Shown: positions 40,446 to 64,000, numbered from the stretch's first letter. The stretch: 64,000 nt of DNA from Botryllus schlosseri (GCA_051294905.1 CM119371.1:1-64000); one strand, 5' to 3'. Notes: generated by a model from the sequence alone, not told the origin. Numbers and translations: made by a program.

Positions 40446-40839
40446 AATATCCAAGTCGCCAAACTAAGCACTGCACAGCACGCACGCTCCCGCATATGTG
40501 CAGGTCCCTGTATGCAGTCAGATGACGTATGAACCAACGTTCGTGATTTCTGAAAAAGCGCTTGGTCAAATCGTATCATAGAAGCAAAATCACGTTACAA
40601 CGTCGTCTGTAGAGTTGGACGTTGATAAAATCAATACGCGTTTTCCTAAATAGAGATAATCGGAAGTCCTTGAACAAATCACATCCTCGCAATCCCTGGA
40701 ATCACCTCCATATTTATGCCAATTTCGGGATAGTATATAACGGTACGATCACCGCTGTATTGTTACTGTGTCACTGTGAGATTTGGGAGAAACAGAATGA
40801 CAGCACATCCAGTGAGGCGAAATAAATAATTGCTGTAAT

Positions 40840-41003
40840 ATGGCAGATTCGTTCAAAGTCGTCGCCATATTTCTTATTTATCAACTTGCATATGCAATCG
40901 CATTTAACCTGATTGTTTCACCGAAGACGTACAGATTCTCACCAGGAAATGAAAAGGATTTCGGATATTCTGTAGCGTTGGCATCGTCTTATGAGCAGAA
41001 TGG
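40840..41003 (+). CDS. Integrin alpha exon 1: signal peptide and start of propeller repeat 1
   Basis: MADSFKVVAIFLIYQLAYAIA-FNLIVSPKTYRFSPGNEKDFGYSVALASSYEQN; donor GG/GTAAGT. Absent from the ORF track because it is short. Confidence 0.88.
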
Positions 41004-44000
41004 GTAAGTAACCGATTTGGTCGTTCTACGTATATCTCGAAGTTGGCAAATCAAGATTTGGATTTCGACTGGTATCAAATGTAATCGTAACTCAAGCGCA
41101 GAGGTGAAATAAAATTTAAAAGTTCGCTATCAAATATGATGACAGAAGGAAGAAATATAGCGTTATGATATTCATTTATCATGCCTGATGAGTCTTATTC
41201 ACCAACCTTCTGAGGTCGTGAGAGGTAATAAACCTATATTCAAATTCTCGCCCGCTTTTGTTAGTATGTAGAAGGCCCATGCAGCTAGGCTATACGCTGA
41301 ATTAGACTTGAATGGGTGTGTCAGACTAACTGTGGGACTACAATATCATTCCAAAGGGTTGTTTACAGTGGATGTGTTGATTACCGCGTTGTTGTCGATA
41401 CCATATGGCAGGTAATTACTCTGATATTAAATATATATGGTTGCGAGGAAATGGAGCGGTCTACATTTACTGCTTATCGTTCATTGCGTAATATGCATAT
41501 CGGCGTTTGGTTTATATTAGTGGTACGCGTAACACTATAGTGGTACGCGAGAGCTTTTTAGGTGGTACGCGAAGAGTGCTGTGAGTAATATAATACCTAA
41601 GATTGGCGAGCTTCTGCACAAGAAAAAGTTGGAATTATCTCATTTTCATAGAAATCGCAGAGGTGATGACCACCAATCGCAGATCATTTGAAAAAGAGAG
41701 TAAGGCATTTACCCTTCAAAATCCATCGCAACTCGCAGTGCAGCTATATAACTTCCCGAATACTTCGTACAGTTCTCAAAGCGCACAATAAACCAAACTT
41801 TTCAAGACCGACATTTCCTTGTAATTTCGGAGAATAGTAAAGTAACCACAATGTTGGTAATTCGCTTACTTGTACTGATGCTTAAAATGCGACTAGAAAA
41901 TGGTAAACGTGAGGATAATTAGTATATTTTAAATGTGAATATTCGATATAACCAAACAGAGTTATAATGAGTCGCTTTAACAATACTTTATTTCGAAACG
42001 GAGCAGTCAATGCTATGACTTGGAATCGGACTCGAGTCATAATAGCACGACTCAGACTCGACCGTTAATTAGCTGACTTGGACTCGGACTCTACTCGGTG
42101 GTGAATTAAAATGACTCAACTTGACTCGAGTCAAAACTATTGAAGTGAGATGGGCTTGTGACTCGGAGCCTTGCGACTTGGTTACAAACCAGAATTTCAC
42201 CGCCAAATTTTATAGCCAGCGCTCCTCCAATCGCCTATTTAATGGTCAGCGCCCCACGCCCCCTTCATCCTCGCGAGCGACTCCAGAGGCGATCGCGCCC
42301 ACTTTCGCACCATCCGAGGTTAGGTGTGCGACGTCTCAACTAAATCTACATATGCCTACTTGACTACTTTTCGGACATTCATATTCGACTTCCTCTTAAA
42401 GTATTTTAAACATGTCTTGTAAATGTATGCCTTTATACTTGCAACAGAGAAGCACGTTTCGGCGTTAACTCTGTTTCTATGTGAGTAGAAACTGTGATTA
42501 CATTTACTATCTCTGATGATCATCTGATCTTGTTTAGGGTGTATGTAGGTAGCCCGAACAGCAATGCAGATGAAGAAGAAACGGGAGGTCAAAGAGATGG
42601 TTCTGTTTACTATTGCCCGATTCAAGATAAACCTGAAAAGGTCAACGGCCATTGTAGGAACCTCAACCTCATGAACAATAATGACAGCGATGGAAAGGGT
42701 GAGTTTTAGAAGATAAGGTATTTTGAGAATCACTAAGAGGGAGGATAAACTTACTTTTCTGTGTGTACAGAGTAATGAAGATAGGACCACGCAGCTTGAC
42801 TGGTCCTCAGTCATTGAGCCATCGAGTACTCTGACGCATAAGGGTTGATATAATGAAACAAAACACAAATATAAGTGATACCAAGTCACTGCAAACCGGG
42901 CAAGAATAAAATTGTCAAGCAATCAAAACCAATCAATTCATAAAATTGAAAATAATGTTTAGTAGCCTACTAGCAGATATGATCACTAAAAAAGTAACAC
43001 TTCTACTTTTCTGTAATCCACATCAGGCCGTTTTTAGACTCCTTGCACTTCTATTCAACAGTTTCTAAAACAAAATTACCAACAGTTTCGCTACACACTT
43101 ATATTTGCGCGTTTTGTATTTTGTAAAGTGGTTAATAAATCGTGGGAAGTTTTACATCACTTTTAAAAGTATAACTCATGATCATCGATAGAAATAGTCT
43201 TTGTGTCCCGGTATCTGAATATTTTTCCGAACGTGAACATATTTACGTTGTCATTATAGTCATTTTGCCCAAACCGTGAACGTGCACATTTCAATATCAA
43301 GTTGATTAACTATACTGAAAGTGTGATACGCTTCTGCCAAGATGTGAAACTATTTTTATGATTACTTCTGAGACTTCTCGCTTTTGGTATATTTCTCGTA
43401 TTTGAATAAAAAATCGTGGTATTAGTTCTATTTCTATTTCTATTTTAATAACAATCCTGACTGTAGCCTATATCCAGTACTATAACGTTGCATATATAGT
43501 ACACACATTGTGTTACACAGTATCCAAGGGCCTCTTCTAGTAATGGAAGATGTTTCATCCAACCTCCATAGTGGAGTCCACATCCATCAGTATCACATGA
43601 TAGGTCCCCAAGAAAATTTGTGTGATATTGTGTTTTTCTATGTAACCTCAAACTAGGCTAAAGTCAAGATATCGTTGCGATCTAAAATGTTCAGTCCGAC
43701 TGTGGATTTACATTAAGCCCACCTCAATTTAACAGCTTAATTTTAAATGAAACCATTGTGTATTGCATATTAAACTTAGACATTGCTTATCTCTACCAAG
43801 TTGGAAAGTTCAGAAATCTATGACCGGCGAGATGACGCTGGCGTGCCACAGTATGGGAGCCAATGATCTAACTATCCCGAATTATTCCCAGCTAATCACT
43901 CCACGTTGCTGAGTGTTGACTTCGAAGGATATCAACCATTGAAGCAGATGATTGATATAGATGATTTCAACTGGACTGAACACCAAGGAGAGACACAGAC

Positions 44001-47000
44001 ACATAATACGGGGCCGCATTTCGATCACACGTACGCAGGTGAAAAAGGATTCCGTATAATTGGTTTTGCTATCACCCGTGGGGCGTACACAAGGCTCTCG
44101 ATTGGAGATTCGGGTCTTCGGGGTATTTTGAGAAACAATATATATCTCTATCCAAGATGGTCAACATTAGAATTGCGATCCTCGAATCGTTTCTAGGACA
44201 GTATAAGAAAATAACCTCCTACCAAATCAAGCCCTGTGTCAGTATCCAAATTTTATTATATATAGTATTTTGTATGGTGGAAAACGTCAATGCCGTACGT
44301 AAATGGTCACTCAGCCAATATGAATAGGATGTTGTATATTTTCGCCTTGATATTTTTTCGGAACACACACCCACTCAAAATATACATACACAATATGTTC
44401 ATATAATATATAGTCGCAATGAAATGAAACTGAGTTTTGTCCAGTTTTCAAATTTTGAAGGTCAGTTTTCTAAACTTGAAAATAATCAAGGTTTTGAAAA
44501 TTTGTCAATTTCTTTGGCCATGCCTTGGCCATGGTTATGTCTGTCTCATTAAATCAACATTAATCTGGGCTAATACTTGGCTGAAAGAAGATGAAAACTT
44601 GAAGTAAAGTCAATTTTCTCGAAATGTAATATGGTCATCGGACAATGGACATAGGTCACTTTGATTCCACTGCGACGATAAATGCATACCATGAGTGCAT
44701 GGTGTGTAGGATGTCACTGGACAAGGAATGGTGCAGCACCTTGTAAGCATTCTAAGTTTTGTATACCACGCCTCCATGGTATCCCGGTACGTTAACTGTA
44801 GTTTGACCTCATCTGGTCATACACAAGCTCCAGTTAATGACAGCCGAACTGCGCTTCACAACTAGGTGATCTATCTATGAAGGAGTGTGTAATAGCAAGT
44901 TCCTAAACTAAAAACATCACGATGCAAATGTGTCTTAATCGTATTGTATGTGACGTTAAGACGTATTTTTTTCGGCGCACCTTCATTGACGCTTTTCTCA
45001 TCATCGATCAACAGACCGTTTGCTATATCGTACTCACGTTACGCTTCTAATCGTAATATCACTTTAATAGTAACACAGATACAATACATCAACTAGTTTT
45101 CCCATTTAGGCCCTCGCACATGCGTATATGTAGGCTTACCATATTTTGGAAATCTAAAAGGGGGACACTTTTTCAGAAATTTAGGACTTGCAAAACCGGA
45201 GAAGAATTCTCAAAAACCGGCCAATTTTTCCCACTTTGTGATCGGTCATCTTTCCGCTCAGATCTCAAAATACCGTTTTTCTCTACACATTGCCAGGTGG
45301 ATGACATATCACTCGCAATTTGCTCTAAATCTGACCTAAATTTTCAAAAAAGTAAGCCTATACCTTACGGCCTTAAAAAGCGGGACGTTTGGCTGACTGG
45401 TCGGGACGCCGGGACAAGACGTTAAAAAGCGGGACTGTCCCGCCTAAAACGGGACGTATGGTAAGCCTACGTATATGTACGCTGCAACTTGAGCTATTCT
45501 CATCCATATTTATCAATCATGTAACCCGCAGTGGCGGCTCGTCCTATAGGGCAACTGGGGCATTGCCCCACCTAAAATTCTGTTCAATAACCATTCTTTA
45601 CCATTTATAGACGCATAACAATCTATATGTACCGAAATCCCAGCGAAAATCGTAACTTCTTGTCCTTTCGCTTGTAAATGCCCATGTATAGCGAAGTCTC
45701 TGCGAAAATCGAATTCTCTTCGTTTTTTCGCTTTGCGAATGCCTAGCCGGGGCATGCCCCGGTAGCGCACATAACAAGCTTTCACTGCCTATTCTCTCAA
45801 AGCCGCGCGCAATAAAGAAACAGTGATTTACTCTCTCCTATTCATAAAATTACCGAGCAGGTAGGGCAACATAGCATGGTTGCCCCTAAGGTGTGATGTA
45901 ACAATTGTATCTATATCTGAACTCGGTTACCGTTATATGCGTTTAGTCGACCTTTGCTGGATAGGTCGATTTTGATGGTGTTTCACACCATGATAATTCT
46001 TGAAACTTGGTATGTCATGTCGTGATGGTGGTATTTAACACTGTCCTAAGTTCTACTCAAAGTTTAGGGTAGTAATTCCGTTTCCAAAGTTGAGTGTGTG
46101 CTGATCCGTCATGTATCGCAAACAGATTTTACTCAAAAGCTGGTATTGGTATCCATTGATTTTGACGATGTTCCATACCGAGATCGGTCATGACATTTGG
46201 TACGGTAAGTCTTAATGTTAGTATCCAACGCTGTACCAAGTTTCAAGTTTGACACTGAACTATGTTAATGGTAATTTCGTTTCTTAAGTCGAGTGAGAGC
46301 TTACTCGTCATTTATCGCAAACATATTTTACGCAAAGCCGGTATTGGTCTCCATTGATTTTAACGATGCTCCTTAGCTAGATCCATCATGAGCTTTTACA
46401 TGGTATGTCTTGATTTTAGTATCGAACGCTGTGCCAAGTCTCAAGGTTGTCACTCAATGATTAGGGCAGCAATTTCGTTATCAAGGTCGAGTATGGCAGA
46501 GATTTGCGCTGATCTGACACTTAGCCTACCTAACGCATTGCAGATTTCACGCAAAAGCCGGTGTATCTGTGTTAACGCTAACTGTGTTCCATACTGAGAT
46601 AGGTGATGAGATGATGATATCATGAAACAGTTTATTAACATCCTCGGTTTGCATTCAAATATTTAGTTTTATTTTATATTCTCCAATGTCAATTTCATCG
46701 TGAAATTGTGGCCTTCAGGCCATTTGCTCACAATTACAACCCCTGTCAAGCGCGATAGCTGTTTCGTTTTCGATGGCGGCTAACAGCAGCTGATCGCTTG
46801 ATCAGCCTATTCCTCAGTAAATTTTAGGCAAAATTCGGTGTTGGTCTGTTCGTATTGGTTTTGACAGTGTGCCATACCGAAAACGGTCATGATGAGGCTG
46901 CTTCTCGATGATTTCATGTAACAGTGTACCTAGTTTTCGGCTTTCATTCATGTATTTATTCGATAATATATTTTCCGACGGCGATTTTGCAGCAGACATA

Positions 47001-50000
47001 TAGACACTATAGACCGTAAGCCGTATGTGTCGTGTGACAGTCTCCAGCCTCAAGGCCAAAATCTCTCAAGCTGTACCGGGACCGAATTTCCGAGGCTGCT
47101 ATCCGTAGTTCTTCAGAATGATATTTTGGATTCAATATGACATGTCCTATCTATGAGATAACAATTGCGTATGTGTCCGAACTCAATGACCTTTCCAGTT
47201 AGGCTTACGCAATCTCTCGAGTTATAGTCATTTCTATTTCTGCAGATAATTAGTCAGGTATAGTGCGAACTAGTGCTGGGCAAAATCGAGTACCTGGATG
47301 ATTCGATTCTGAATCACGTAATATGCTTCGAGTCGAGTCGAGTAATCGAGTATCACTCAGTACGACGTCATAACAGAATGTAATACTTGAAGTTCAAATA
47401 TTTACCATTTATGCCACCACAAAAAATATATTTTCTGTTATCCATCTCATAAAAGATACTTTGGTATTTTTTCGACCATACCGATTTCATTGCACTTGGT
47501 GACAATGTTGTGGGATAATCATGACTTCGTAAATGTGCTACGTCCAGTAACCTTCGTAGCTTTGTATTATATGTTACGTATGCTACGATACCACCCATCA
47601 AGGTTTCAGGGCTTCTATAGTATCGAAACTATAATTCTCGTTGATAAATTAACTTTCAGTGGCGAGGTGCGTATTATTTCAGTACTCGAAAAAAATCGCC
47701 TTTTACTACTCGACTCGAATAATTAAAATTAATACTCGAATCATTGTGCCCGGCCCTAGTGCGAACATGAACCGTGTCGAATCTTTGTTCCGTACGCCGT
47801 TTACGCAGTTACCACACTTCAAGTCACAGCTGGATTCAATCTCTACAGAATTATACCATCCATGTCTGACATACGCAGCGGGTCGACTCGCGGTTATGTC
47901 TGTATAATGGTTTATTTTAATTAAGCCCTCGGCGTGTGTCATAAAATGCCGCATAGATTTTCTTAAACGAACCACAAAGTTACAACAACCGGCAGAAATT
48001 TCGCTACACTGACCTGAAACGTTTCGTCTTACTCTAGACCAGGGGTCACCAACCCGGTGCCCGCGGGCACCAGGTAGCCCGCGAGGTCCAGATGTGGTGC
48101 CCGCGAGCCTGTTCTGAAAATAGATCGAATAGTAGCATTTGCCAATATTCGTCAGATTATCACCAGTGAGCTTTTAAATAGATAAATTGAGTGATTTAGC
48201 TATTGTTGTTTAAATCATACTATAACATGTGACTTGGAAATGACAATACATATATATAAACACTTAAAATGATGATAGCAAATATCCCCAATTACAACCA
48301 GTAATATACCAACATGTAGCCTAATCGAATCACAAGATATCGAAGACTGAGCACTGAGCACTACCTAAACAGGCGACATATGGCGGAATGCTATCCACGG
48401 TCTTCTTGAAATGTCGGTGGTGAAGCTGGACAGTGGACATCCAGAACAATGACACATGAGCAAATGGCATTACTATTCGGTAGCAGATAGCCGTGTTTCT
48501 CCTTTTCTGTAATAGTTGTCACTGCCCGGTATAATGCTCGACAAGTGGATTCGCTTGTCAATCAAATCCTTTCGAGACTCTTTGGCAACATATACTTACC
48601 AAGGTCATTCTGACTTAACAATGCCCCAATCCCGAAGCCGGCGATCGCAACGCTGACAAAGCCGGCACAGCTCGTGTGATACTATAGATCAGTGGTTCTC
48701 AACCTTTTTCACCTCGCGGACCGGTAAAATTTCAAAAAATGTCTGGCGGACCGGTGAACTTTGAAAATTGAAATGAAGCCAGAATGTAAAGTATGCAACT
48801 GTTTTTTTGCAATTATATGGTGCTAAAGAGTGACATTTAAAGGGTTTTGATCGTAATTGAATATCTTCATGACGCCATCCATGTGATTTTATGGTAGTCA
48901 GTCTCCAGAGTCGAGGTAAAATTGCCTTATCCAGTTGAACGTGCTACCGCCGAGAGTCGTTTACAGTCTTTCGCGCCAAAGGCTGCGAGTTTAACCGACC
49001 ACGCCAACTCGAACCAAGCACCTTGTCGGGCTACCTTGCTCATTGCCCACTGCCACCAGACGCATAGGCTACTCTGGCAACTACGAATACAATGCGTGCC
49101 GCAAGAAAACACCTTGCAGCAAACTATACCGGTTATCCGGAAATCCGGGCCACAAAAGCACTTCGTTAGCCAACCCCCAGAAACGTTGATCTTGGACCCC
49201 CACAGGGCGATAATCCAAACTTCCGGGGCTTCGCCCCCAGACCCTGCAGTTGGGGGTGTGTTTTCACCTGTACTTGTGAGCACATTCATTCTACTCAGTG
49301 TAAGCAGAGAGTTTATCCTGCTTAATTGCGCTAACAGCGAAAATTATCGATCATTCATGACTGAATCGGTTTTCTCGGTGAGGAATTTTGGCACACCTTT
49401 CAGAGTCCCATGTTAGCCCAAACTTCATAATGGGCTGGTACGTCGTGGCATGGTAATGGCTGACGCCGAAATGGCTATTTCTATAAACCATGCGTATTTC
49501 TCGTAGAAGGGCACCTAATATAAGCAAGACATTTAGTGATACTAAATCGCGTAAAGCGCGAAAAGAAATTGAAAATGTTTGGAAAACTTTCAGAAAAATA
49601 CGCTATGATTTATGTTCATTTGTAAAATAATCATGGGCTCTTTTCAATGGGCCCCTCTCCAATTGGGTTTGGGTGCCCCAGTTACGGTCCTGCACAAAAT
49701 GAATGAATCGAAAACGAATGATCGCGCAAACTGCGCTGTTTAGCGATGAGTCAGCTCATATCTGTTCTGTATACTTGTCGCCCACATGTCGTCAAATGAC
49801 ACTCCTTGAACTTTAAGTCAAATTGAACATGTTTCCAGTCCTAATGTTACCTCATGAAGTTCTGAATAATTTTAAAATTTGATAATTTATTTATTTTATT
49901 AATGGACAAGCCTTCAACATTGCATCTTGAAATTAAGGTATAAAATTGTGATATACCTGGCGGACCGGCAGGAATGTCGTCGCGGACCGGCAACGGTCCG

Positions 50001-53000: not shown

Positions 53001-56000
53001 TCCTTCCATGGCTGGAGCCCTACACCAGTAGTTACAGAAGCCAGCTTTTTCAAATTTATGTTTTTCACTGGACTCCTTCCCACGTTTGCCCCGTCAGCAT
53101 TTCCTCTGGAAATATGTCCAATCTGATAAAACACACCTGGATAATTTGCTATGCAATGTGTGTGCACTGTGTGCAGTCGATGGATTCGTCCAATGCTAGG
53201 CGCTATAGTAGTCTATGAGTGGCAACGTACTGTGTTTCAAAACATGCGATTAAGATCGACTGAGATAGCTGTTACTCTTCTGGTGACTGTTGAATCAGAC
53301 AACTGTAGCAGTGTAGCCTCGAAATTTATCAGGTGATGTTGGACTTGCTGCTAAGTTCCGGAAACAGCGAATATTCGCACAGTAGGCCTACGTTAAATTT
53401 TTATTGAATTCACACATTCTCTAGCAGACTCTTCGGTTTATTGATAATCAAATCAATTTTGAACAATGCGTCTGTCACGTCGTCGGCAATTTTAAAAATG
53501 CCTCGAAACATGGATTGCTGGGCTTGAAATCAAGCTAACTGTATAACTCCAGATGAAACTATAGTGCTATCATTTCAAGCTTCTAGGCTTTGTTACAACA
53601 AATGTTCTTCGACAAATGTGACACATCGGTCTTCCATAACAATACTGTACCAGTAGTAATTTCGTTCATATTGAAAGATGTCGCGGGCCGCAAAAGAATC
53701 GTCTGCGGGCCGCATGCGGCCCGCGGGCCGCGGGTTGAGAACCCATGATATAGAACAACATTCAAATGCCTTATAATTTTATTGTAAATGAATTAAGTCT
53801 TAACAATATTCAAATATAACTCTGGGATTCTTTCCTTTTCAATCTTCGATTCGCCCTCAGGTATCAAGCATGGAAACTGACCTTAGGCCCGGTTGATTCA
53901 TTCTCCATAATGATGCATAATAGTCCATTTCTGACTTATAATATTAGCCACTACAATTCGTACCGAAGTCTGATAAAGAGGAGAATAGACGAAATCTAAC
54001 ATCAAGAGTTACACTGCTGCTCCCTAGTCAAAGAGATTTTCAGACGTCGTGTACTGAGATGTACCGGTATCTGACATATACATCAGTGAAACCATGACAT
54101 ACCACGATTATATGTACCTGCTAACCCAGTTTCTAACCAATGTACACTGTACAGGTTAAAATGAATCAGACAAGGTATATATCTAATAAATCCACCTGTA
54201 GACATACAATGACTGAGAGTTTCGCGGTATCGGTACTGCCGTGAGTGCCGGGGCTGTTTGGCCTTTGGTAATTACCAAGTACCGGTACTGCTTACAGTAG
54301 AATGCTCTCTTGCAGTCAAGCTTTTAGTTTTAAAAGTTTTAAAATGACCTCGAATCAGTCTAAATTCAATGAGGAAACAATTATAGATGCCAAAACACGC
54401 AATACCCGGACAAACTATTGCGGTGACATAGAGCTAACGATCAGTAACTGCTGACCAGTCGCTCGCAACTCGCGACAAAGTTGAAAATTTTCAACTTTGT
54501 CGCGGAGTTGCGCAACCCTGTCGCAGACGGCATGTTGCGAGTTGCCAGCGACTCCGGTCTGCATGGTCCAGTCGCAGACAGGCGCGATTCTCTCGTTTTA
54601 TCGGGTCGCGAGCTCAGTGTGCAGAGGCCTTAATACTGTACACCGCTTGATCGTGTCATAAGCAAATATTTCTCCTATTCATTTAGCCGTCGGCAATAGA
54701 CCGATGGTTCCGTTTGGTGTTGGAAAGTATGCAGTTAACAAACATGTGTTCGGCTAGTCATTTGTCTTTTAGTGATTTTTGAAGAAACCGCCGCGATAGC
54801 TCAAACTCCTTGAATCGGTACTTCCTACCTGACGTTGATAAATACCGCAATGCACATGAATGGAGCCAGCCAGGGTCGAAACAGCTTCCATGCTGAAATC
54901 GAAACCCTTTTGTTTTAAAATGCCGATTTTATGTCCAATATTTCTACATACATTTGCAATTTAGTATTTTGGTATTAGTGATGCAAATTAGCGACAATAG
55001 ACTGTGTATAGCGGCATACGATCTGAGGTTACTGACATCTCTTGCAGCCCATGTGCTACTATCGACTGTGTTGTGTATAGTGTGGCGCAGCCCTGATACG
55101 CAGTAGGCTGGTGCGCCTGCTATCATCGCTGATCTGAATTACCGCTTCTGCAGCAGTAGCTTTCCTACTCTCTCCCCAATGCTGTTACATTTAGGTTGAT
55201 TATCGTTCGTAATGCCATGCTGTTTTTGGGCTGACACGAAATCAATTCCAATTTGCGTGGCGGGCGGCCTAACTGGCTGCGCATAGACTCTGTGAACAAA
55301 TACTATTTTATTCATATCCAACTTTTTTGACGGCAATAACTCCGCTTCTACTGGTTGGAATTGAACCAAATTTGAAGAACATCGTTTTTATAGACAACCT
55401 AATACTTTCATGGGGTGAACAGAAAAATTTAAAGTTTTTAGTTATTTATTTTTATATAATAAATAGAAACTTTCTTCTCCCGTAGCAATGCGGATACCGG
55501 TTGGAATTGAACTAAATTTGGAGTGTAGGCTTAAGTTAGTTAACCTAACAATTTTATCAAGTAGCCAGTACGATTTGAGAAAAAAAGTCATTTTTGAAGA
55601 CCCCTAATGAACAGGGGTGTACGAGTTTTGAGCAAACGTTAAAAGGGTGTACCACGTCGAAAAAGGTTGAAGAGCACTGTAATCTAGTTGACCAATTCGC
55701 ATTAGTCACTTTGTTGCATTCTGTTATTTCTTGACCTCTCGTAAGGATTGTCGGTAAGATATTGGAATCGCCAAAACGCACCAGAAACAAACTTTTAACT
55801 GAGGAGCACGCGATTCAAAGTTGATATTTCTATATAGTATGCATCATTTTCCTCTGCTGTTCGCATATGTATTTTGGGGCTCCGATTGTAAAGGGCGCCA
55901 TTATATGAAGATGGAAAAACGAAGTCGCTTTGAATCGCGGCTAGCGCGAAGAAAATTTCCAGATCAATTAAAATCTCTCAATAATGAGGGAGTCAATTCG

Positions 56001-59000
56001 TAAATTCAATTTGCATGTCGACGGCCGCCAACACATACTAATTCAATTGCGTGTTGACGGCCGCAGAAATTTGCTTTCATACGGCTTCCCCTGATTTACA
56101 ACAACTCTACTATGTACGCCTACGCTTTACATATAATATATATTCATTAGTGATTTTCATAACATTCAAGTGCTCACTAGCGATGGTGGCGAAGTTGACC
56201 TGACTTATATCAAGGCACCCTGCATGCTTATCAATTAGGTGAAGCGCGTAAAATGCTCTGCCCGCTGCTTTGATGAACGGCTCAATGCCGTCTGTCTGCC
56301 GTAACTCTGACACCTCATTAGATTTATACAGTATGTCGTGGCGCGATGCACACATAGGCTTGCATAAAAACAAAGGGTGTTTTATCAAACTTTGTTCAAA
56401 ACATGTTTTAAACAGGGTTTCGAACAAAGGACTTAAAATGAAAAAAATTGTGTTTATTAGGTTGTAATATTATGCAATAATTGTGTAAATACTTTCCAAA
56501 AACATGTGGTCGTGTTCAGGGCTTTGGAGCAGCCGTAAATTTAAACTGCTCCAGCTCCGGCTCCGGAGCTTTCTTCTATCATACATTACCTCCGGCTCCA
56601 GCTCCGGAGTCGCATTATTACCACTTCTCCGGCTCCAGCTCCGGCTCCGGCTCTGAAATTATCGAATGGGCCTATATATATCAGGGGTGGCCAACCCGTG
56701 GGCCGAATGTGGCCCGCGAGGTAATTTCCTATTATATTATCGAAAATGAATTGCTCAGATTGTGAACTTGCAATGTCAACCAAAAATTACAAGTCTGGCT
56801 GCGACACTTGGGATGTTGATGACGAAAATATCAGTTCTGACGCATTGGCAGATCCAGCGTACAGTCACTTTTCCAGTAAATCGTCGTACATTACAATAAA
56901 CTAAAATGGTAGTGAAATTTTTCTTCACGCTTCGCGTGTTTAATTGTCACACGACTTCTTGCTTGGTAGACTAACCCCTATTGAAAATGAAAATAAACGC
57001 CTAATTTATCCGATTGAGTCTAACTGCATTCGCAATTACGGGAGAAAGTCTTTTCGTGTTTGCGCTCGCATGAAGATCGTCGACGGTGAAATGTAGGCAC
57101 AAAATGATTGTTGCATATTATCGGAGACCTTCGATATCGAAGTGGCCAGACGGCGAAAAGTCGTGTCCTTGCAAACTGAGACTAGCCGGCGGTATACAGT
57201 AGACCCGCAATATACTCAAGTAATAATATTATTGACCTAGTTTATTTATTAACTTTGAAAATTTTACCCGCTTGGCGCGGCTACTGGACCGCGCGCTCAT
57301 TCGTCAATTTCATGTGCCCCTTTAGCCAAAAAGGTTGGCCATTCGTGGTCGATATAGATTATATTAATCTATTCATATGTTAGTTATCTTATAGTAATCT
57401 AGAGTCTGACAGCCGTCAGTAACACCCGATGTCGCAACGAAGACTGAGGTGCCGCCGTGCCGGCTTGTGACCTCATAATGAATACTTGTCAATTGTTGAT
57501 AACATTAATGTTGCAATAGAACGCACTTTACTCTATGCCATTGCTGTGCACAGCATTAAAATTCAGGCCTGCTGTTCAATAATGATAAATCAGCAGATGT
57601 GGTTGTTGCATTAATAATAGCATCTTATGAAATACGTCGGAGCCGGAGCTACTCCTCAAATAACGGGCTCCAGCTCCGGCTCCGGCTGAATTTTATGTGG
57701 AGCTCCGGCTCCGGTTCCGGCTCCAGTGAAAATGCATAGCTCCGGGGCTCCGGCTCCGGCTCCAAAGCCCTGGTTGTGTTGCATGAGCCTACGGACAATT
57801 ATCACTCGATATAGCCGACGTATATCGATATGGGATTGTTGGAACCCTGAAAATAGTCGGTTCAACAGAAATAGTACATATATTTCGTCGAAGGAGCTAT
57901 ATTTACCCCATGTTTTCAATTGTAAATGTCAATCCACTGTGACGTCACAAATGATACTCTTGACGTTATGACTTGAAAAAAATAAAAAAATAAAAACATG
58001 TTTTAAATAAGGGCCTTGTTTTAAGTAAGTTTGCTTTAAATAGATTTTTGTTTTAAATGCAATCCTATCCACACAACTTGAGGTCAAAACAAATTGAATC
58101 AGCACAGATAGTTCATGGTAAAGCTGCGCAGATCGTTGGTTTTAAATCGCCGTTATAACACTTTTATGTCATTTAATGAGAACAGCAAAGTGTCAAAAAT
58201 CAAGACCATATCTCAGGGTAAACTCATAGTACCTCGATAAAGCTAGAGGTTACCGACCACTGATGTCGGGTTAATATCGTTCGCTAAAAAGCGAGTCGAC
58301 ACGTGCTGATTAATTTGGCGAATCAATTACCGCCATCGGCTGGGCGCTTCTCTTCCATATCTAATAGTCTTAAGGTTGCAGCTTATTGAAATTGAAGTTG
58401 CATGTACTTGTACGTTTGTACATGCTATGTATTAAACTCTCTGTTTAATAAACGCTGTAATATAACGCTGTTATAATTAAGCCTGGAATAGACGATCCGT
58501 ACGGAGCGCATGCGTTTAGTGGGATTGGTGAGATAGTGAGATTGCGTCATCGTAAGGGTAGTAAACAACATGCGCTCAGCCGTGACTTTCACGTTCGATG
58601 ATCATCACCTGCACAGTACACAGTTGGGATTGTAGGGAATATTCACAAATGTTTATTGAGCCTGACATTATTGTCGCTTTGGTGTTTGAGATTGAGGGTA
58701 TATTGGTTTAGATTTAGAAGTATGCCCCGTTTCAAAAAAGTTTAAATGTAGGTTAAAATCTCAAGCCTTAGGAAGAACAATGCTAAACTTTTAGGTGTTC
58801 TGGCTGACTTTATGTCTTCCCCCGTTGGATTCTGAATGTTGATGTGTACAATGCCGAGCATGGAAAGACTCGTCATACTTTACATATCTTCAAGTCCATA
58901 TCACAGAATAATATCACGCCAAATTGTGTTCATGGCTACCTTGTTATAGTAGTCTGGATTGGTGTGATTGTACAGCTCTATACACAGCGGCAATTAGATT

Positions 59001-62000
59001 CTCGTCTTCTATATTATTCATTTTGTTTTGCAACTGAAATTAGCATAAAATCGCATGATTAATCACTGCAACTTCAGAAAGTGCGATGTCCGATCACTAC
59101 AGACCTGCCAACGCAGCTGAGCGGATGGAAAATACGCATGAAAGCGAACGCGTGCGGGTTCTCACACTTTTGCTCTTTCTGCTCCTCATTTTTTCCTCGT
59201 CCCTCTTCTCTCTCGCACGCATCCGTTTGAGAAGAGAAATAAGGAGAGAAAGAGACGGACGCGTTTACGCATCGTCTATTCCAGGCTTTACACATTGGTT
59301 GCATGGATGGTGGGTGATATAAACTTGTTATTGTTTCAGCTGGTAAAAAGGGCCATTACATGTTGTTAGAAAGCTCGTCACGCAGTGTTGGCGCCTCAGC
59401 CATGATGGCTACTCCAGAACTGCCTCAAAGTACAGGATCATGCCTCAGGTAAGAAATGACATGTGTTTTATTCATGCAAATTCCACTCATTATTCAATGA
59501 ATTGTGTCCGTATTGTCGGCAGCGTGACTACACCTCGTAATCATAATGAGGGTTTCAATTAATCTCATCCGGTCAGAACACGCAATGTGCAATGAACTCA
59601 CACCTTTATATAGTGGATTTGACGACGATGCAATGATTGTTCGATTGGTTACAGGCATAAATAGAGCACGGCCTATGGATCATAGATAATATCGAAGTTT
59701 TAGAAATGCCCCGTAAGCTTGATAATATATAATTTGATTACCAGCTGCATATATAGGGGTTTTCGGTGAGAGGGATAGGTATCGGATTTATCCGTATCGG
59801 CTCAAAATTGCAATATCAGAGTCATAAACCACCAAGAGAGTGGTTCCAACCTACGAGTCAATACGATATAAGCTGCATATTTCTCCACTTATTTGTATTA
59901 GTCGCGATGCGGCTTTGGTTTGGGTGTGTATTGTGAGGATTACGAATAGGGCATAGATATATGCCGTAGGCTACAAATGTAACTAGAAATGCAAACTCCT
60001 CAAATTTTGTATCGAATTTTATTCCTTATTTAGATATAATCATTGGGATTTTGAGTCATGATAAAGGCTATTGAATAACCGCCTTGAATCACAAGAACTT
60101 GTTGGTTGGAGAAATGTGTTTAGCGCAAGTAACGTACTTTGAAAGTGCGCATCTGATGGATAGAATTATAGATAACTAACCTACGGATAGATACGCAACA
60201 CCCGTCGTCACGCTTGCTTGCCCGGAGGAAATTACCTCTCAGCAATCTGAGCGCAGCATAATTGCTAATCCCATAGCTGACGACCTGAGCGCTTAAATTA
60301 AATGAAGTTGATCTTATTTGAAAGCTACTGTCGCGTTGATTCTGAAAATATACATTAAAATTTCATTAATGGAATGGAACCAGCTCGAGATAGCCTTCCA
60401 AGTCTGACAACCAGCATTGTTGCTAACAATGGCAGCGATGTAGCACAATGACCATAACAATGGCCCTCGCATGGTTGAGATTGTTTACAACAATTCAGAT
60501 TTTCAGACGTTGAGGTGTATTTTGCCTGGGTTCCGCTACCCTGATCAGATTGTAATGTATATTTTCGGAATCAGTACGACAGTAGCTTTCAAATAAGATC
60601 AACTTCATTAATTTAAGCGCTCAGGTCGTCAGCTATGGAATTAGCAATTATGATGCGTTCAGATTGCTGAGCAGTAACTTCCTCCGGGCAAGCAAGCGTG
60701 ACGACGGGTGTTGCGTATCTATCCGTAGGTTAGTTATCTATAATAGAATAGATTAAATGGGTTTATGAGGCAGAGACCCCATTGGTCCAAATTCATATAG
60801 TAGTACAACAGCAGAGGATATTTAGGATTTTTTTTGATCACTATGTAACTTGCAATTAATGTACTTTGAAAGTGCGCATCTGGTGGAGAAAATCGATTAA
60901 ATGGGTTTATGAGGCAGAGACCTCATTGGTCCAAATTCATATATTAGTACAACAGCAGCGGATATTTAGGTTTATTTTTTGATCACTATGTAACCTACGT
61001 ATAACGGTTGAGCATAGGCCTTTCGAATCAGCGAATGAATAGGCTACCTTTTGATCCTTATTTCTGTAAAACTATGAAATGAGTGTGCACTTCTTTCCCT
61101 TATCAGAATTTAGCATCAATATCAGAACCCGGCGGCGAATTGAGAAAAAACGTAACATTGCCCTCTAACGGTTAAAATTATGAATATACAGTCAAATACA
61201 GATGTTCCACATTTGCGATGTTGATGAGCCAATTTCGTCATCCATTTACGTGTACTGGATAGTACAATCCATTTTTCATTTACACAGCATTTCCTCGCGG
61301 AACGGTTGAAATCGTCCAGCGGTCTGCATCCGGCCTGTAGGCCTCATGTTTGACATACCGGAACTACATTATTTGACCTTTGGTTTTCTGTTTCGCACAA
61401 TTGAAGAAGCCAAGCCTAGATTAGGACCGAATGTAGTAGTAATATTGGTTTACAAATGCACCCAGTAAAAAGTTACGCGTTCTGTAAAAGTACCTATGCT
61501 CATACTTACAGTCAACACATACTTATAAGTTCTGTGCGCAGTCTGATCAAGTATTATGTATATTCTGGCACTCTTTCTACTCTTACAGATTTTGGTATCA
61601 CATGCGTGGGCGGCATTTGGGGAACTTGAATGTGTATGTGTCGTCAGCATTACTGGGAACTAGAATAGTATGGACTAAGTCAGGCCACCAGAACGATACG
61701 TGGCATGAAGGCTGGACTTCGGTGATAGCAGAAGAGCCTTACAAGGTGAGCAGACATCAGCCATCCAAAATCTCGAGTTTGGCCTGTATGTTGAAATTCA
61801 CCCATTGCAAAAATATCTTACTCTTACCTTGCGTTTCACAGTTCACACTTCTGTTTTTTTTTAATAGGAAAACGTAGTTTAGGGAAATGTTTGCGCCACT
61901 TTCACGAGTGGCGTCATACCATAGGTCGGAATAACCCTGGTAAATGACAAATGATTATTACATTTTGGAAATTCGACCTAGTCGATGTGTCATAAGTCAC

Positions 62001-62627
62001 ATTGCGTTAGTCGCGACAATGTATCTTTCGATTTCGAAACTAACTTTCTACAATTAACTGCCAAAATTTTTGCGACCGATATATCCACTTTTTAAAACGA
62101 AGTATCCAAGTACCTCACAAACATGTTGTGTTTTTGACATTCAGATGTTATCCACAGCAGCATAATAATCCTGTTGGCTTGGTTATTTTTATCCGAATGT
62201 TTCCGTGTTTCTCACTGTGAGACTGTGCCGTTTGCACTAATCTGTTAGTTATACTATGACACCCTAGTGAGGCTGTCTGATTTCACATAATTCATGTCGT
62301 TTCGACACCCTCCTATCTTTTCATTATAACAAAATTCTGTGGTGTATTGACATGATAAAATTGATAATAAACAGTAACGAATTTAACTGCGACAAAATCG
62401 TATGATAGCCTATTCCAATATAACTGATAGTAACACCTATAATTTAATCAGCTATGTTACCTCGTTTCTAATTAATTTTCAGATTTTATTCGAAGGGGTG
62501 GTCGGTCCGGGTTACGAGTCAGACATGGGACTAGATGACATTGTGCTATATCAAGGACTTTGTGTCGAAGATGAGCTGACAGAAAAGGCCTCTCTTGGAA
62601 TGACATTAAAAGTCGACAAAGAATCAG
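40840..62627 (+). CDS. Integrin alpha-like gene, 5' partial, with an inserted MAM domain: join(40840..41003,42538..42698,43892..44038,59340..59448,61589..61745,62483..62627), continuing beyond
   Basis: All junctions are GT-AG, intron phases 2,1,1,2,0,1 are consistent, and there are no stops in 883 nt. Motifs in order: signal peptide, FNL, DFGYSV, VYVGSP, GSVYYC..C, MAM motifs, KASLGMTL. Confidence 0.85.
42538..42698 (+). CDS. Integrin alpha exon 2: rest of FG-GAP repeat 1
   Basis: TGTTTAG acceptor; VYVGSPNSNADEEETGGQRDGSVYYCPIQDKPEKVNGHCRNLNLMNNNDSDGK; donor G/GTGAGT. Confidence 0.9.
43892..44038 (+). CDS. Exon 3: N-terminal part of the MAM domain
   Basis: TTCCCAG acceptor with an upstream CTAAC branch site; SVDFEGY...DDFNWTEHQGETQTHNTGPHFDHTY; donor CAG/GTGAAA. 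Confidence 0.85.
45131..45469 (+). mobile_element. hAT (Tip100-like) MITE
   Basis: TIR TAGGCTTACCATA/TATGGTAAGCCTA; perfect TSD cgtatatg; CGGGAC repeats. Confidence 0.9.
45529..46950 (+). repeat. Second copy of the dispersed repeat at 15175-17130, with ~190-bp tandem units
   Basis: Inverted collinear similarity; this copy lacks the MITE found at 15204-15723. Confidence 0.8.
47271..47758 (+). mobile_element. hAT-type MITE (copy of 15204-15723)
   Basis: TIR TAGTGCTGGGCA/TGCCCGGCCCTA; perfect TSD gtgcgaac. Confidence 0.92.
48040..50621 (+). mobile_element. hAT Buster/Charlie deletion derivative retaining the transposase C-terminus (50101-50295)
   Basis: TIR CAGGGGTCACCAACC; perfect TSD ctctagac; MFGLTYRCESVFSDMTFIKNKHRTRLTDAHLEDSLRV...QCQPSH. 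Confidence 0.92.
48690..50024 (+). mobile_element. hAT MITE nested in 48040-50621
   Basis: TIR CAGTGGTTCTCAACC; perfect TSD ctatagat; CGGACCGG subterminal repeats. Confidence 0.92.
50850..51620 (+). pseudogene. Possible heavily decayed LINE reverse-transcriptase fragment
   Basis: A (Q)GGILS-like motif at ~51505 and an ILNKG motif upstream at roughly RT-like spacing; many frameshifts. Confidence 0.3.
52065..54629. mobile_element. TTAA-flanked TIR element (PIF/Harbinger- or Kolobok-like)
   Basis: TTAA-GGCCTCTGCACACTGA ... TCAGTGTGCAGAGGCC-TTAA; TCGCGA/GTTGCG subterminal motifs. Confidence 0.75.
52528..53747 (-). mobile_element. Second copy of the Buster-type element at 17565-19023
   Basis: Collinear similarity; TIR CAGGGGTTCTCAAC; perfect TSD atatagaa. 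Confidence 0.9.
56517..57772 (+). mobile_element. hAT MITE with (GGCTCC)n subterminal repeats
   Basis: TIR CAGGGCTTTGGAGC/GCTCCAAAGCCCTG; TSD gtcgtgtt/gttgtgtt. Confidence 0.88.
56682..57347 (+). mobile_element. Innermost hAT MITE (family of 27037-27825)
   Basis: CAGGGGTGGCCAACC ... GGTTGGCCATTCGTG; shared internal ATCAGTTCTGACGCATTGGCA. Confidence 0.8.
59340..59448 (+). CDS. Exon 4: MAM domain
   Basis: TGTTTCAG acceptor; GKKGHYMLLESSSRSVGASAMMATPELPQSTGSCL; donor AG/GTAAGA. Confidence 0.88.
60134..60995 (+). repeat. ~130-bp tandem duplication; the first unit is interrupted by the MITE
   Basis: GTACTTTGAAAGTGCGCATCTG at 60134 and 60861; GATTAAATGGGTTTATGAGGCAGAGACC at ~60751 and ~60895. 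Confidence 0.88.
60167..60742. mobile_element. MITE with ~165-bp TIRs and a 7-bp TSD (P-element-like)
   Basis: TATAGATAACTAACCTACGGATAG... and its reverse complement; TSD atagaat at 60160-60166 and 60743-60749. Confidence 0.85.
61589..61745 (+). CDS. Exon 5: MAM domain
   Basis: CTTACAG acceptor; FWYHMRGRHLGNLNVYV...VWTKSGHQNDTWHEG...PYK; donor AG/GTGAGC. Confidence 0.92.
62483..62627 (+). CDS. Exon 6: end of MAM and start of propeller repeat 2
   Basis: TTTTCAG acceptor; ILFEGVVGPGYESDMGLDDIVLYQGLC then VEDELTEKASLGMTLKVDKES; probable donor CAG/GTGAAA. Confidence 0.88.
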
Positions 62628-64000
62628 GTGAAAAAGCACCAAAATTTCTAAAGCTTGCCGATGGCCTTGACAACATATTTTTAAAACGGCCTACAAGCAC
62701 AGTGAACACTGAACAGCGATAAATATAAGGTATACTCTCAGCGCAAATGGTGTGTATTCACACCCAAGAGCTGAAACGTGTGGAACACGAGAACAGACTT
62801 AAACTCAGAATTATATAGCGGTCAAAAATTGCGCGCCCACGTGCATACATGATTGGATTTTTAATCGATTCATGGATCATGGATGTATATTCACACCTGT
62901 ATATCAGGACTGGCACAAGGGTGGAAATACACACAGTTTTCGCTAAGAGGGTAAGTGGAATTTGAGGTTTGATAATGGTGATTAAAGCAGTCACTGTTGG
63001 TATCGAAATACAAGTGAAAGTACTGTCAGAATTTTCAACGCATTTACTAGTAGAGTAGGGATTTACACGAGATGCGATAATACATACAAAATACGTCAAA
63101 TGAAAGTTGCACGCGATAGTCTTGAAGGTTTTCGAATATAAGTAGGCCTTGTTCAGATTGTTGATTTGATCAAGCAGTTCAAGTGGTTACGCTCATGGAT
63201 AGTACCGGAATTGGAACGTATCCTCATGACTGACACATAATGATCAATGCCAACAGAAATAAAGGTGTATTTCTGCAACATATGTTCACTATTGTCCAGT
63301 TACCGTGATACAAAGGCTATACAAAGGCTATGGTTATATGCTACAAAACAAGAATACCAGAATATGTGGTGCAAGTGGACACAGCCAACTTGAGTACTCC
63401 AAATATGAACTGCTCCATTACAAGTTGACGTAGCGACTTCCAAGACATGCCAAAACTTCTGGAAGGGGCACTGGAAAACGGAAAGTGGAAAAGTACTCAA
63501 TGAAGTAGGTTCAAAAAGAAAATTTGGGTGGGGCCTGCATATAAGTAGGTAATCGAAGGTGGACACTTTCAAGGTGCAAGATATATCATCACCGCAACCG
63601 CAAAAATACTATTGAAATTGTCAATAGGTACCACTTTCGAAGATACACTCAGGTAACGTTAAACAGCGTCATCTCATGCGGTTCCTGTAACCATTTCACT
63701 CATAATCACATGCATACAAAGCACAGAACTACCTTCCAATTTTCAAAATCGAGAGGGGAAACTAAGTAGTTTTGCATGAACACCTGTCCAAGTAGGAGTG
63801 GAAGTGACTTATTAACACAGAACCACTTTACAACGTATCGCAAGTAAATGAAACCTGCTTGAGTACTCCGACAAAGTAAACATACTCAGCCACTCTTTGC
63901 CTCGGTGTATAGCATTGCTGTAATTCGCGTGACATATCAGTTGCATCGACTGATTTACATGAAAACTTTAGTTTTTAAGTTACAAAAGTCATCTCAATGA

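What the first reader, a model, noticed from the sequence alone, without database searches (positions are those of the whole stretch)
40840..62627. Integrin alpha subunit with a MAM domain inserted between beta-propeller repeats 1 and 2
Seen: six exons splice in frame to give a signal peptide, FNL, DFGYSV..VYVGSP..GSVYYC..C, then a MAM domain (DFE, NW, TGPxxDHT, GHYMLLE, CLRFWYHM, W..SG.Q...W, FEG, MGLDDI, C), and immediately afterwards EKASLGMTL. Established: FNL is the usual mature N-terminus of integrin alpha chains. The K..xLGMTL-type motif opens propeller repeat 2, especially in I-domain alpha chains. The known inserted ligand-binding module is the vWA/I domain, between repeats 2 and 3. 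MAM is an adhesion and oligomerisation domain (meprin, neuropilin, PTPmu). Inference: this is an integrin with a different inserted module in a neighbouring propeller loop, which could give a new ligand-binding or homophilic mode. I know of no described MAM-containing integrin, but I could not search.
Basis: partly seen in the sequence, partly recalled or inferred. Interest (0 to 1): 0.92.

Follow-up and report, generated by a model that had tools for sequence, protein, structure and literature searches.

The report
Integrin alpha with MAM plus I-domain
This is a real, conserved sea-squirt-type integrin alpha gene that carries an extra MAM adhesion domain next to the usual inserted I domain, a design found in databases but apparently never described.

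Summary
Six exons (40840-62627) have AG/GT borders and matching phases. They encode a signal peptide, FNL, propeller repeat 1, a complete MAM domain and the start of repeat 2. The MAM end and 'EKASLGMTL' lie in one exon (62483-62627).

The gene continues past the window on the same contig to a stop at 95128-95130. Downstream lie repeat 2, a vWA/I domain with a DGSDS MIDAS motif, Ca-binding FG-GAP repeats, leg domains, a TM helix and a 'KFFES' tail. So MAM is added beside the I domain, not in place of it.

The best match among 1.84 billion representatives is Styela clava XP_039273967 ('integrin alpha-X-like'). Pfam finds MAM 114-268, VWA 342-512, FG-GAP and Integrin_A_Ig_1-3 in it. The window gene is colinear with it throughout. 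MAM identity (52%) equals that of the I domain (54%) and exceeds repeats 1-2 (29-33%), so MAM is under constraint.

The insertion maps just before alphaL residue 61, one inter-blade loop before the I-domain site. No searched paper describes this architecture.

MAM function is inferred only. Verdict: real gene, new variant of a known kind.

The parts
40840..41003 (+). Exon 1: ATG, signal peptide (MADSFKVVAIFLIYQLAYAIA), mature N-terminus FNL, FG motif of propeller repeat 1 (DFGYSV)
   Evidence: Sequence read. An in-frame stop lies just upstream (ORF 40816-41007). The donor is GTAAGT and the exon ends in phase 2.
42538..42698 (+). Exon 2: rest of repeat 1 (VYVGSP ... GSVYYC ... GHC) and the linker leading to MAM
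   Evidence: No paralogue in the same genome: 1 of 1 matches was the exon itself.
43892..44038 (+). Exon 3: N-terminal quarter of the MAM domain (DFEG ... DDFNW ... TGPHFDHT)
   Evidence: It is 46% identical to S. clava residues 106-149. It gave no Pfam hit on its own. Alternative acceptors at 43914 and 43928 are not excluded.
44039..59339 (+). Intron 3, 15.3 kb, filled with interspersed and tandem repeats
   Evidence: ORF list; 198-bp tandem repeat at 46055-46492.
59340..59448 (+). Exon 4: MAM profile positions 41-75 (GHYMLLE ...)
   Evidence: Pfam MAM, E 4.6e-4, 20.5 bits. 53% identity to S. clava 156-189.
61589..61745 (+). Exon 5: MAM profile positions 77-129 (CLRFWYHM ... WHEGW)
   Evidence: Pfam MAM, E 4.7e-8, 33.5 bits, over the cut-off. 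The whole-genome family scan also hits C1:61587-61748. 48% identity to S. clava, E 2e-15.
62483..62627 (+). Exon 6: last MAM strands (FEGVVG ... MGLDDI ... C, profile 131-157) joined in a single exon to the first strand of propeller repeat 2 (EKASLGMTL)
   Evidence: 50% identity to S. clava 240-291. The S. clava equivalent aligns to alphaL '[11 protein letters not shown]' from residue 61.
62628..64000 (+). Intron 6 up to the window's end. The rest of the gene lies beyond the window on the same contig and strand (contig C1 numbering continues the window's).
   Evidence: Downstream parts, in C1 coordinates:
- Exon 7, 64013-64146: repeat 2, SVLACAP ... GLCYLL.
- Exons 8-11, 64896-65033, 66595-66724, 66992-67129, 72359-72523: vWA/alpha-I domain with MIDAS DGSDS. 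Pfam VWA covers profile 1-37, 40-83, 85-129 and 132-172, each over the cut-off.
- Exons 12-18, 72988-73152, 74416-74500, 74584-74684, 75283-75459, 75832-75990, 77534-77683, 78066-78280: repeats 3-7 and the thigh start. FG-GAP scores 40.4 and 34.4 bits; Integrin_A_Ig_1 scores 25.5 bits against a cut-off of 26.
- Leg exons, placed only roughly: about 79512-79586, 82163-82270, 82768-82950, 88027-88179, 88710-88820, 89519-89620, 91030-91119.
- TM exon, 92197-92331.
- Last exon, 94969-95130: tail AKFFESKYRQKKEE ... STFQR and the stop.

Best explanation
The region is the 5' part of one roughly 54-kb gene (40840-95130, + strand). It encodes a type-I membrane integrin alpha subunit of the I-domain class, the class so far reported only from tunicates and vertebrates. 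Its beta-propeller carries two inserted globular modules in neighbouring inter-blade loops. A MAM jelly-roll domain sits between repeats 1 and 2, and a vWA/alpha-I domain sits between repeats 2 and 3.

Shown:
- the exon structure and the open frame;
- the domain order;
- conservation of that order, and of the MAM sequence, in a second ascidian.

Inferred:
- The protein pairs with a beta subunit and binds ligand through the alpha-I MIDAS. MIDAS is intact here, and a Glu occupies the 'internal ligand' position (ALES, against I/LEGT in vertebrates).
- The loop that carries MAM is of the same kind as the one that carries the I domain. MAM should therefore sit on the ligand-facing top of the propeller, beside the I domain. 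This geometry is recalled from the published integrin propeller structures, not computed here.
- There MAM most likely adds a second protein-binding or self-association surface, as MAM domains do in MDGA1, RPTPmu, neuropilin and meprin.
- By analogy with the one studied ascidian I-domain integrin (recalled: Halocynthia alphaHr1, a complement-receptor-like chain on blood cells), a role on haemocytes is plausible but untested.
For: Gene structure:
- 18 exons have AG/GT at all borders, and the joined frame is open for 880 codons.
- The MAM end and the start of repeat 2 share one exon.

Domains on the window gene itself:
- MAM profile 41-157 is covered colinearly by exons 4-6.
- VWA profile 1-172 is covered colinearly by exons 8-11, and FG-GAP matches twice.
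- Integrin_A_Ig_1 scores 25.5 bits against a cut-off of 26.
- A TM helix and a conserved tail are present.

Orthologue:
- phmmer of the thigh exon against 1.84 billion representatives gave 6 hits at E<=1e-3. The best was P0003, which is S. clava XP_039273967.1.
- Pfam on P0003 finds MAM 114-268 (124 bits), VWA 342-512 (169 bits), FG-GAP x3 and Integrin_A_Ig_1/2/3.
- The revised RefSeq model P0009 keeps MAM at 124-278.
- tblastn of P0003 on C1:1-164000 is colinear from 43894 to 95124.

Constraint, as identity to S. clava:
- MAM 80/154 (52%)
- VWA 93/171 (54%)
- repeats 4-7 107/216 (50%)
- repeat 1 30/102 (29%)
- repeat 2 24/73 (33%)

Insertion point: P0003 270-561 aligns to alphaL 61-353 (5e6r_A) and to alphaX 68-366 (3k6s_A). 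MAM therefore ends directly before the 'YLGMTL' strand.

MAM relatives with solved structures: MDGA1 (E 1e-23), an SR-C-like protein, enteropeptidase, neuropilin-1/2, RPTPmu/kappa and meprin beta; 16 sequences at E<=1e-3.

Taxonomic frame: I-domain alpha chains are reported from tunicates and vertebrates but not from amphioxus or echinoderms (PMC4237329, passages seen).
Against: - There is no transcript evidence.
- The S. clava protein is itself an automatic gene prediction.
- Exon 3 alone gave no Pfam hit, and its acceptor is ambiguous.
- The MAM lacks the N-terminal cysteine pair that I recall for typical MAM domains, in both species.
- The juxtamembrane motif is KFFES (GFFES in S. clava), not GFFKR. 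The recalled Arg that clasps the beta tail is therefore absent.
- S. clava has FAFPNQ where the window gene has IALESQ, so the internal-ligand Glu is not conserved between the two.
- Only one other species with this architecture was found. The region search with P0003 40-345 returned 74 hits, and only the query itself carried integrin domains. That search was crowded by multi-MAM proteins.
- Leg exons are only roughly placed.
- Nothing here tests what MAM binds or where it sits in three dimensions.
Confidence: 0.8

Rival explanations
1. MAM is a facultative cassette. The gene would make both a MAM-containing and a conventional MAM-less alpha-I integrin by alternative splicing, so MAM would tune a subset of receptors rather than define the protein.
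For: Exon 2 ends in phase 1. An AG at 62581-62582 inside exon 6 would let an exon start at 62583 in the compatible phase. That would give ...DGK-E-KASLGMTL in frame, skipping exactly the MAM (read). Intron 3 is very long, at 15.3 kb.
Against: The internal AG has a purine-rich upstream context (gatgagctgacag), which makes it a poor acceptor. Both RefSeq versions of the S. clava protein contain MAM. MAM is as conserved as the I domain, which shows that the MAM-containing form is used. No RNA data were obtained either way.
Confidence: 0.12
2. The MAM exons are not part of the mature integrin mRNA. They would be remnants of an exon-shuffled or transposed MAM gene fragment, or a nested gene, lying in a long intron. 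The apparent fusion would then be a gene-model illusion.
For: The genome holds very many MAM exons elsewhere, with 154 matches. The introns here are repeat-rich.
Against: The last MAM strands and the first strand of propeller repeat 2 are contiguous in one exon with no stop. Without that exon the integrin would lack the start of repeat 2. All phases fit. The same order is found in S. clava, with 52% identity over 154 aligned MAM positions and only 3 gap columns. A decaying fragment would not keep that.
Confidence: 0.04
3. MAM is part of the protein but has no binding role of its own. It would act as a structural spacer or a shield that restrains or positions the neighbouring alpha-I domain.
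For: From recall, the neuropilin MAM domain has been interpreted as a positioning module rather than a dimeriser, and it is among the solved relatives. MAM is inserted one inter-blade loop away from the I domain. Integrin alphaE likewise has an extra 'X' region just before its I domain (PMC12422189, passage).
Against: Conservation of 52% over the whole domain, equal to that of the ligand-binding I domain, is more than a spacer would be expected to need. The closest solved MAM domains (MDGA1, RPTPmu, meprin) belong to proteins in which, as I recall, extracellular contacts matter.
Confidence: 0.2

Closest known systems
Styela clava XP_039273967.1/.2 (RefSeq automatic names 'integrin alpha-X-like' and 'integrin alpha-1-like'; P0003, P0009)
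   Same: It has the same domain order: repeat 1, MAM, repeat 2, VWA, FG-GAP repeats, Ig-like legs, TM and an xFFES...STFQ tail. It is colinear with the window gene over its whole length, with 29-54% identity by region. It is probably the orthologue.
   Different: It is a different and rather distant species. It has a stretch of about 50 residues between repeats 3 and 4 that the window gene lacks, and FAFPNQ instead of IALESQ after the I domain. It is a prediction with no published description that I could find.
Vertebrate I-domain integrin alpha chains: alphaL (PDB 5E6R), alphaX (3K6S, 5ES4), alphaM (7USL)
   Same: They are the best solved relatives of the orthologue (E 3.5e-71 to 1.5e-63). 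They share the propeller, the I domain between repeats 2 and 3 with a DxSxS MIDAS, and the thigh and calf legs. The 'LGMTL' strand is shared with alphaL.
   Different: None has a domain between repeats 1 and 2. In alphaL that loop is about 8 residues (RGSNYTSK), against about 190 residues here. Their tails carry GFFKR (recalled), not KFFES.
Ascidian I-domain integrins (Ciona Ci_alpha1-8; Halocynthia alphaHr1)
   Same: They form the lineage-specific tunicate clade of I-domain alpha chains (PMC1145181, PMC4237329; passages seen). The window gene's I domain lies at the same site.
   Different: In both papers a search for 'MAM' or 'meprin' found no mention of such a domain. The Ciona models were refined by homology to human chains, so an extra domain could have been missed.
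Integrin alphaE 'X domain'
   Same: It is another case of extra sequence inserted in the alpha head close to the I domain (PMC12422189, passage).
   Different: As I recall, X is a short acidic stretch immediately before the I domain, between repeats 2 and 3. It is not an autonomous 155-residue fold in the previous loop.
MAM domains of MDGA1 (5OJ2), SR-C-like protein (8YT7), enteropeptidase (8H3S), neuropilin-1 (5L73), RPTPmu (2V5Y), meprin beta (4GWN)
   Same: It belongs to the same Pfam family, PF00629. The orthologue's MAM aligns end to end with them, at E 1e-23 down to 3e-5.
   Different: In those proteins MAM is a link in a linear chain of domains. Here it is nested inside another domain, in a propeller loop. 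The N-terminal Cys pair is absent in both ascidian proteins.

Membership tests
Integrin alpha subunit | N-terminal seven-repeat FG-GAP beta-propeller | tested here: met
   FG-GAP (PF01839) scores 40.4 and 34.4 bits on exons 15 and 16. Repeats 1-3 and 7 are recognised by motifs (DFGYSV, LGMTL, SAGF, YFGYSV) and by colinear alignment to the orthologue, which aligns to the alphaL and alphaX propellers. I did not count all seven blades by profile.
Integrin alpha subunit | Ca2+-binding DxDxDGxxD-type loops in the last three or four repeats | tested here: met
   DMNGDGMDE, DLNGDGFGD and DVDQNQYPD are present in the joined model. The consensus itself is recalled.
Integrin alpha subunit | Ig-like leg domains (thigh, calf-1, calf-2) | tested here: inconclusive
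   Integrin_A_Ig_1 scores 25.5 bits on exon 18 against a cut-off of 26 and 22.5 bits in the genome scan. Matches to the S. clava legs are colinear but weak, and the leg exons are not fully modelled. The orthologue itself has Ig_1, Ig_2 and Ig_3.
Integrin alpha subunit | Single C-terminal TM helix followed by the GFFKR motif | tested here: inconclusive
   The TM helix is present (WWIIIVAVCAGLLLLALLILLLYK). The motif is AKFFES here and GFFES in S. clava, so FF is kept while Gly, Lys and Arg are replaced.
Integrin alpha subunit | Heterodimer with an integrin beta subunit | not tested
   No beta chain was sought, and no complex with a beta chain was predicted.
I-domain (alpha-I/alpha-A) class of integrin alpha | vWA domain inserted between repeats 2 and 3, with MIDAS DxSxS ... 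T ... D | tested here: met
   VWA profile 1-172 is covered colinearly by exons 8-11, each over the cut-off. DGSDS, GGRTETG and ITDGKS are present. The position matches alphaL and alphaX through the orthologue.
I-domain (alpha-I/alpha-A) class of integrin alpha | Invariant Glu after helix 7 (the 'internal ligand', I/LEGT) | tested here: inconclusive
   The window gene has LIALES. By transitive alignment its E falls on the E of alphaL 'VIEGT'. S. clava has FAFPNQ at the same place. The motif name is from PMC12422189.
MAM domain (Pfam PF00629) | Full-length match to the ~158-position profile | tested here: met
   Exons 4-6 cover profile 41-157, with 20.5 + 33.5 + 14.1 bits on separate pieces. Exon 3 aligns to the part of the orthologue that covers profile 2-40. 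The orthologue scores 124 bits over profile 2-157.
MAM domain (Pfam PF00629) | Four conserved cysteines (feature recalled, not from a call) | tested here: not met
   Only the C-terminal pair is present (SCLRFWYHM ... QGLC). The N-terminal positions read SVDFEG ... DDFNW here and KYDFET ... DDFDW in S. clava. This lowers 'canonical MAM' but not family membership, which the profile score settles.

The most novel reading that the evidence does not exclude
Ascidians possess a distinct class of integrin whose head has two ligand-facing inserted domains side by side. MAM would be an independent recognition or self-association module that works together with the alpha-I domain, for instance in haemocyte adhesion, self/non-self contact or receptor clustering. 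It would also show that the top inter-blade loops of the integrin propeller captured foreign domains more than once near the origin of the I domain.
Probability: 0.3. Interest if true: 0.78.

Novelty: new variant of a known kind. Interest (0 to 1): 0.62.

Why it matters
The alpha-I domain is the textbook example of a domain inserted into the integrin propeller, and its origin in early chordates is under active study (PMC4237329; PMC12422189). A conserved second insert, of an unrelated adhesion fold, in the next loop of a tunicate I-domain integrin has two consequences.

- It shows that this face of the propeller accepted foreign domains more than once.
- It offers a natural experiment on how an extra head module coexists with I-domain signalling to the beta subunit.

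It also warns that homology-guided integrin gene models, such as the refined Ciona set, can miss lineage-specific inserts. Automatic names such as 'integrin alpha-X-like' likewise hide the architecture.

Tried and rejected
- **Whole genome as a file:** I used genome searches and stretches instead.
- **RNA evidence:** The look-up of sequencing runs listed no RNA holder of the stretch. It listed 21 raw RNA runs and 3 runs guessed to be RNA under the same species label. No reads were laid and I did not try again.
- **Exon 6 against 5.8 billion proteins ('longer'):** 22 candidates, none at E<=0.01.
- **FG-GAP exon 17, same tool:** 1 hit among 12 candidates. It was a 143-aa read-through ORF from a close relative (82% identity, Logan contig). 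It says nothing about architecture.
- **P0003 residues 40-345, near lengths:** 74 hits among 1346 candidates. Of these, 73 were other MAM-containing proteins, most of them multi-MAM MALRD1-like animal proteins and some bacterial. Only the query itself had integrin domains. The search was too crowded to show whether other species have the architecture.
- **Paralogues in the same genome:** exon 6 matched only itself plus 15 weak MAM-only matches (best E 0.039). Exon 2 matched only itself. Of the 9 Integrin_A_Ig_1 matches, only the one on C1 lies within 100 kb of a listed MAM match (150 of 154 listed).
- **Complex prediction on two copies of the S. clava MAM domain:** no verdict.
- **ESM Atlas look-up:** no usable hit.
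- **Earlier findings of this scan:** nothing relevant.
- **Structure prediction:** not attempted.
- **Literature:** searches found no paper that places a MAM domain in an integrin alpha chain. One search's sea-urchin paper (listing only) concerns integrin alpha and the Npnt gene. From recall, Npnt (nephronectin) is an integrin ligand that carries a MAM domain, which would explain why both terms occur. Subscription journals are not covered.
- **First submission of this report:** one search was returned because parts beyond the window's end are not accepted. Those parts are now listed in the text of the last part.

Full report
**What is in the window.** The window is the first 64 kb of a 41.8-Mb contig of a 495.5-Mb eukaryotic assembly. 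Every border is AG/GT and the phases fit. The exons are 40840-41003, 42538-42698, 43892-44038, 59340-59448, 61589-61745 and 62483-62627.

- Exon 1 opens with ATG just after an in-frame stop. It encodes a hydrophobic signal peptide followed by FNL and the FG motif DFGYSV.
- Exon 2 gives VYVGSP...GSVYYC...GHC.
- Exons 3-6 give a MAM domain.
- Exon 6 runs straight from the last MAM strands (FEGVVG...MGLDDIVLYQGLC) into VEDELTEKASLGMTLKVDKES.

So the 3' junction between MAM and integrin is not a splice inference. It is contiguous DNA.

**Is it more than chance?** Pfam MAM matches exons 4, 5 and 6 at profile positions 41-75, 77-129 and 131-157, with 20.5, 33.5 and 14.1 bits. The coverage is perfectly colinear, although each piece was scored alone. 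Exons 1-3 gave no family on their own. The whole-genome MAM scan also picked up exon 5 (C1:61587-61748).

**The gene goes on beyond the window.** I fetched C1:64001-164000. The next 31 kb holds, in order and on the same strand:

- repeat 2 (SVLACAP...GLCYLL);
- four exons of a vWA domain that starts with DLVFLIDGSDS;
- FG-GAP exons with the loops DMNGDGMDE and DLNGDGFGD;
- a DVAVGAPG/thigh exon;
- leg-like exons;
- a TM helix;
- a tail.

Pfam confirms these. VWA matches colinearly at profile 1-37, 40-83, 85-129 and 132-172, each over the cut-off. FG-GAP scores 40.4 and 34.4 bits. Integrin_A_Ig_1 scores 25.5 bits, against a cut-off of 26. MAM is an additional insert.

**A second species has the same protein.** Two word-indexed searches with single exons found almost nothing. 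An exhaustive phmmer of the 71-residue thigh exon against 1.84 billion representatives gave 6 hits at E<=1e-3.

- The best hit is a 1472-residue protein that matches at its residues 859-929. That is about 220 residues later than a normal I-domain alpha chain would place its thigh.
- Pfam on it finds MAM 114-268 (124 bits), VWA 342-512 (169 bits), three FG-GAP repeats and Integrin_A_Ig_1, 2 and 3.
- It is Styela clava XP_039273967.1, 'integrin alpha-X-like'. The later RefSeq version (.2, 'integrin alpha-1-like', 1492 aa) keeps the MAM.
- tblastn of this protein on C1:1-164000 gives colinear matches from 43894 (MAM start) to 95124 (C-terminus ...STFQ).

Using it as a guide, I fixed 18 exons of the head. 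The joined frame is 880 codons without a stop.

**Constraint.** Aligned to S. clava, identity is:

| Region | Identical / aligned | Identity |
|---|---|---|
| MAM | 80/154 | 52% (3 gap columns) |
| VWA | 93/171 | 54% |
| Repeats 4-7 | 107/216 | 50% |
| Repeat 1 | 30/102 | 29% |
| Repeat 2 | 24/73 | 33% |

A MAM fragment stranded in an intron would not be kept like the ligand-binding I domain. This is the main argument, in the absence of RNA, that MAM is part of the working protein.

**Where the insert sits.** Against solved structures, the orthologue's residues 270-561 align to alphaL 61-353 (5E6R) and its residues 274-566 to alphaX 68-366 (3K6S). The aligned text is 'EDNNSLNRLFGMTLSTNEKTGQVLACEP' against '[28 protein letters not shown]'. 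MAM thus ends at the residue before alphaL R61, in the short loop between the Cys-Cys hairpin of repeat 1 and the first strand of repeat 2. The I domain occupies the equivalent connection one blade further on. From the published propeller structures (recalled, not computed here) these connections lie on the ligand-facing top. I therefore infer that MAM stands beside the I domain.

**Other features.**
- MIDAS is intact (DGSDS...T...D).
- After the I domain the window gene reads KLIALESQ. By transitive alignment its Glu falls on the 'internal ligand' Glu of alphaL VIEGT. S. clava has FAFPNQ there (motif named in PMC12422189).
- The juxtamembrane motif is AKFFES (GFFES in S. clava), not GFFKR.
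- The tail is about 54 residues long and conserved to its end.
- The MAM lacks the N-terminal cysteine pair in both species.
- Its closest solved relatives are MDGA1, an insect SR-C-like receptor, enteropeptidase, neuropilins, RPTPmu/kappa and meprin beta.

**What it probably does.** The protein is most likely a heterodimeric adhesion receptor of the tunicate I-domain class. Such chains are reported only from tunicates and vertebrates (PMC4237329, passages). Together with the S. clava hit, this suggests that the source organism is a tunicate. I think the most likely role of MAM is a second binding or self-association surface next to the I domain. A positioning or shielding role is the main functional rival. 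A self-pairing prediction for the S. clava MAM gave no verdict and counts for nothing either way.

**What is not shown.** An in-frame MAM-less isoform through an internal AG of exon 6 (exon start at 62583) is possible on paper, but the site looks weak. The exon 3 acceptor is ambiguous. The leg exons are only sketched. I could not survey other tunicates: the one region search was swamped by multi-MAM proteins, and only 1 of its 74 hits, the query itself, had integrin domains. In this genome the gene has no detectable paralogue with the same junction.

**Novelty.** Four full-text searches found no paper that places a MAM domain in an integrin alpha chain. Term searches for 'MAM' and 'meprin' inside the three most relevant papers also found no such mention. 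These were Ewan 2005 (PMC1145181), Chouhan 2014 (PMC4237329) and the 2025 Science Advances study (PMC12422189); I saw only the matching passages. The library lacks most subscription journals, and I did not see supplements. The architecture does exist in RefSeq and UniRef as an automatic prediction under a name that hides it. I therefore class it as a new variant of a known kind: a real and conserved double-insert integrin, interesting for integrin evolution and structure, with its function still open.

Noticed in passing
window 62300-62372 and 62734-62952 (intron 6): Two short stretches match dozens of places on many contigs of the same genome at 67-90% identity (47 matches scored). They look like interspersed repeat (SINE or MITE-like) copies. 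Similar peptide-like read-throughs (e.g. ...SGSQPF..., ...WFSTFL.SRTP...) recur in other introns of the gene.
   Followed up: partly
G000:C9:5.76-5.98 Mb, also C9:22.48-22.53 Mb, C8:9.20-9.30 Mb, C13:1.05-1.06 Mb: The majority of the 150 listed MAM-profile matches in this genome lie in a few dense same-strand arrays. These are presumably giant multi-MAM (MALRD1-like) genes. The closest weak matches to the MAM part of exon 6 also lie there and at C11:27901890. They could be the source of the inserted domain.
   Followed up: no
G000:C11:20975013-21039768: Three Integrin_A_Ig_1 matches lie within 65 kb on both strands. This is probably a cluster of integrin alpha paralogues. No listed MAM match lies near them.
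   Followed up: no
window 46055-46492 (intron 3): A 198-bp unit is repeated 2.2 times at 75% match.
   Followed up: no
C1:94969-95130 and S. clava P0003 1420-1472: The cytoplasmic tail is unusually long for an integrin alpha chain, at about 54 residues. It is conserved between the two species right to the C-terminus (...STFQ), with xFFESKY(R/K)QKKEE replacing GFFKR. This suggests lineage-specific intracellular partners.
   Followed up: partly
C1:72500-72523 versus P0003 516-524: The Glu at the I-domain 'internal ligand' position is present in the window gene (IALES) but replaced in the S. clava model (FAFPN). This is either a real difference in I-domain signalling or a mis-spliced RefSeq model.
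   Followed up: no
window 1-40800: No convincing coding exons were seen upstream of the gene. There are only 10 stop-to-stop frames of 110 aa or more, and none was examined further. The contig starts here with AT-rich sequence (GC 0.30 in the first 2 kb).
   Followed up: no
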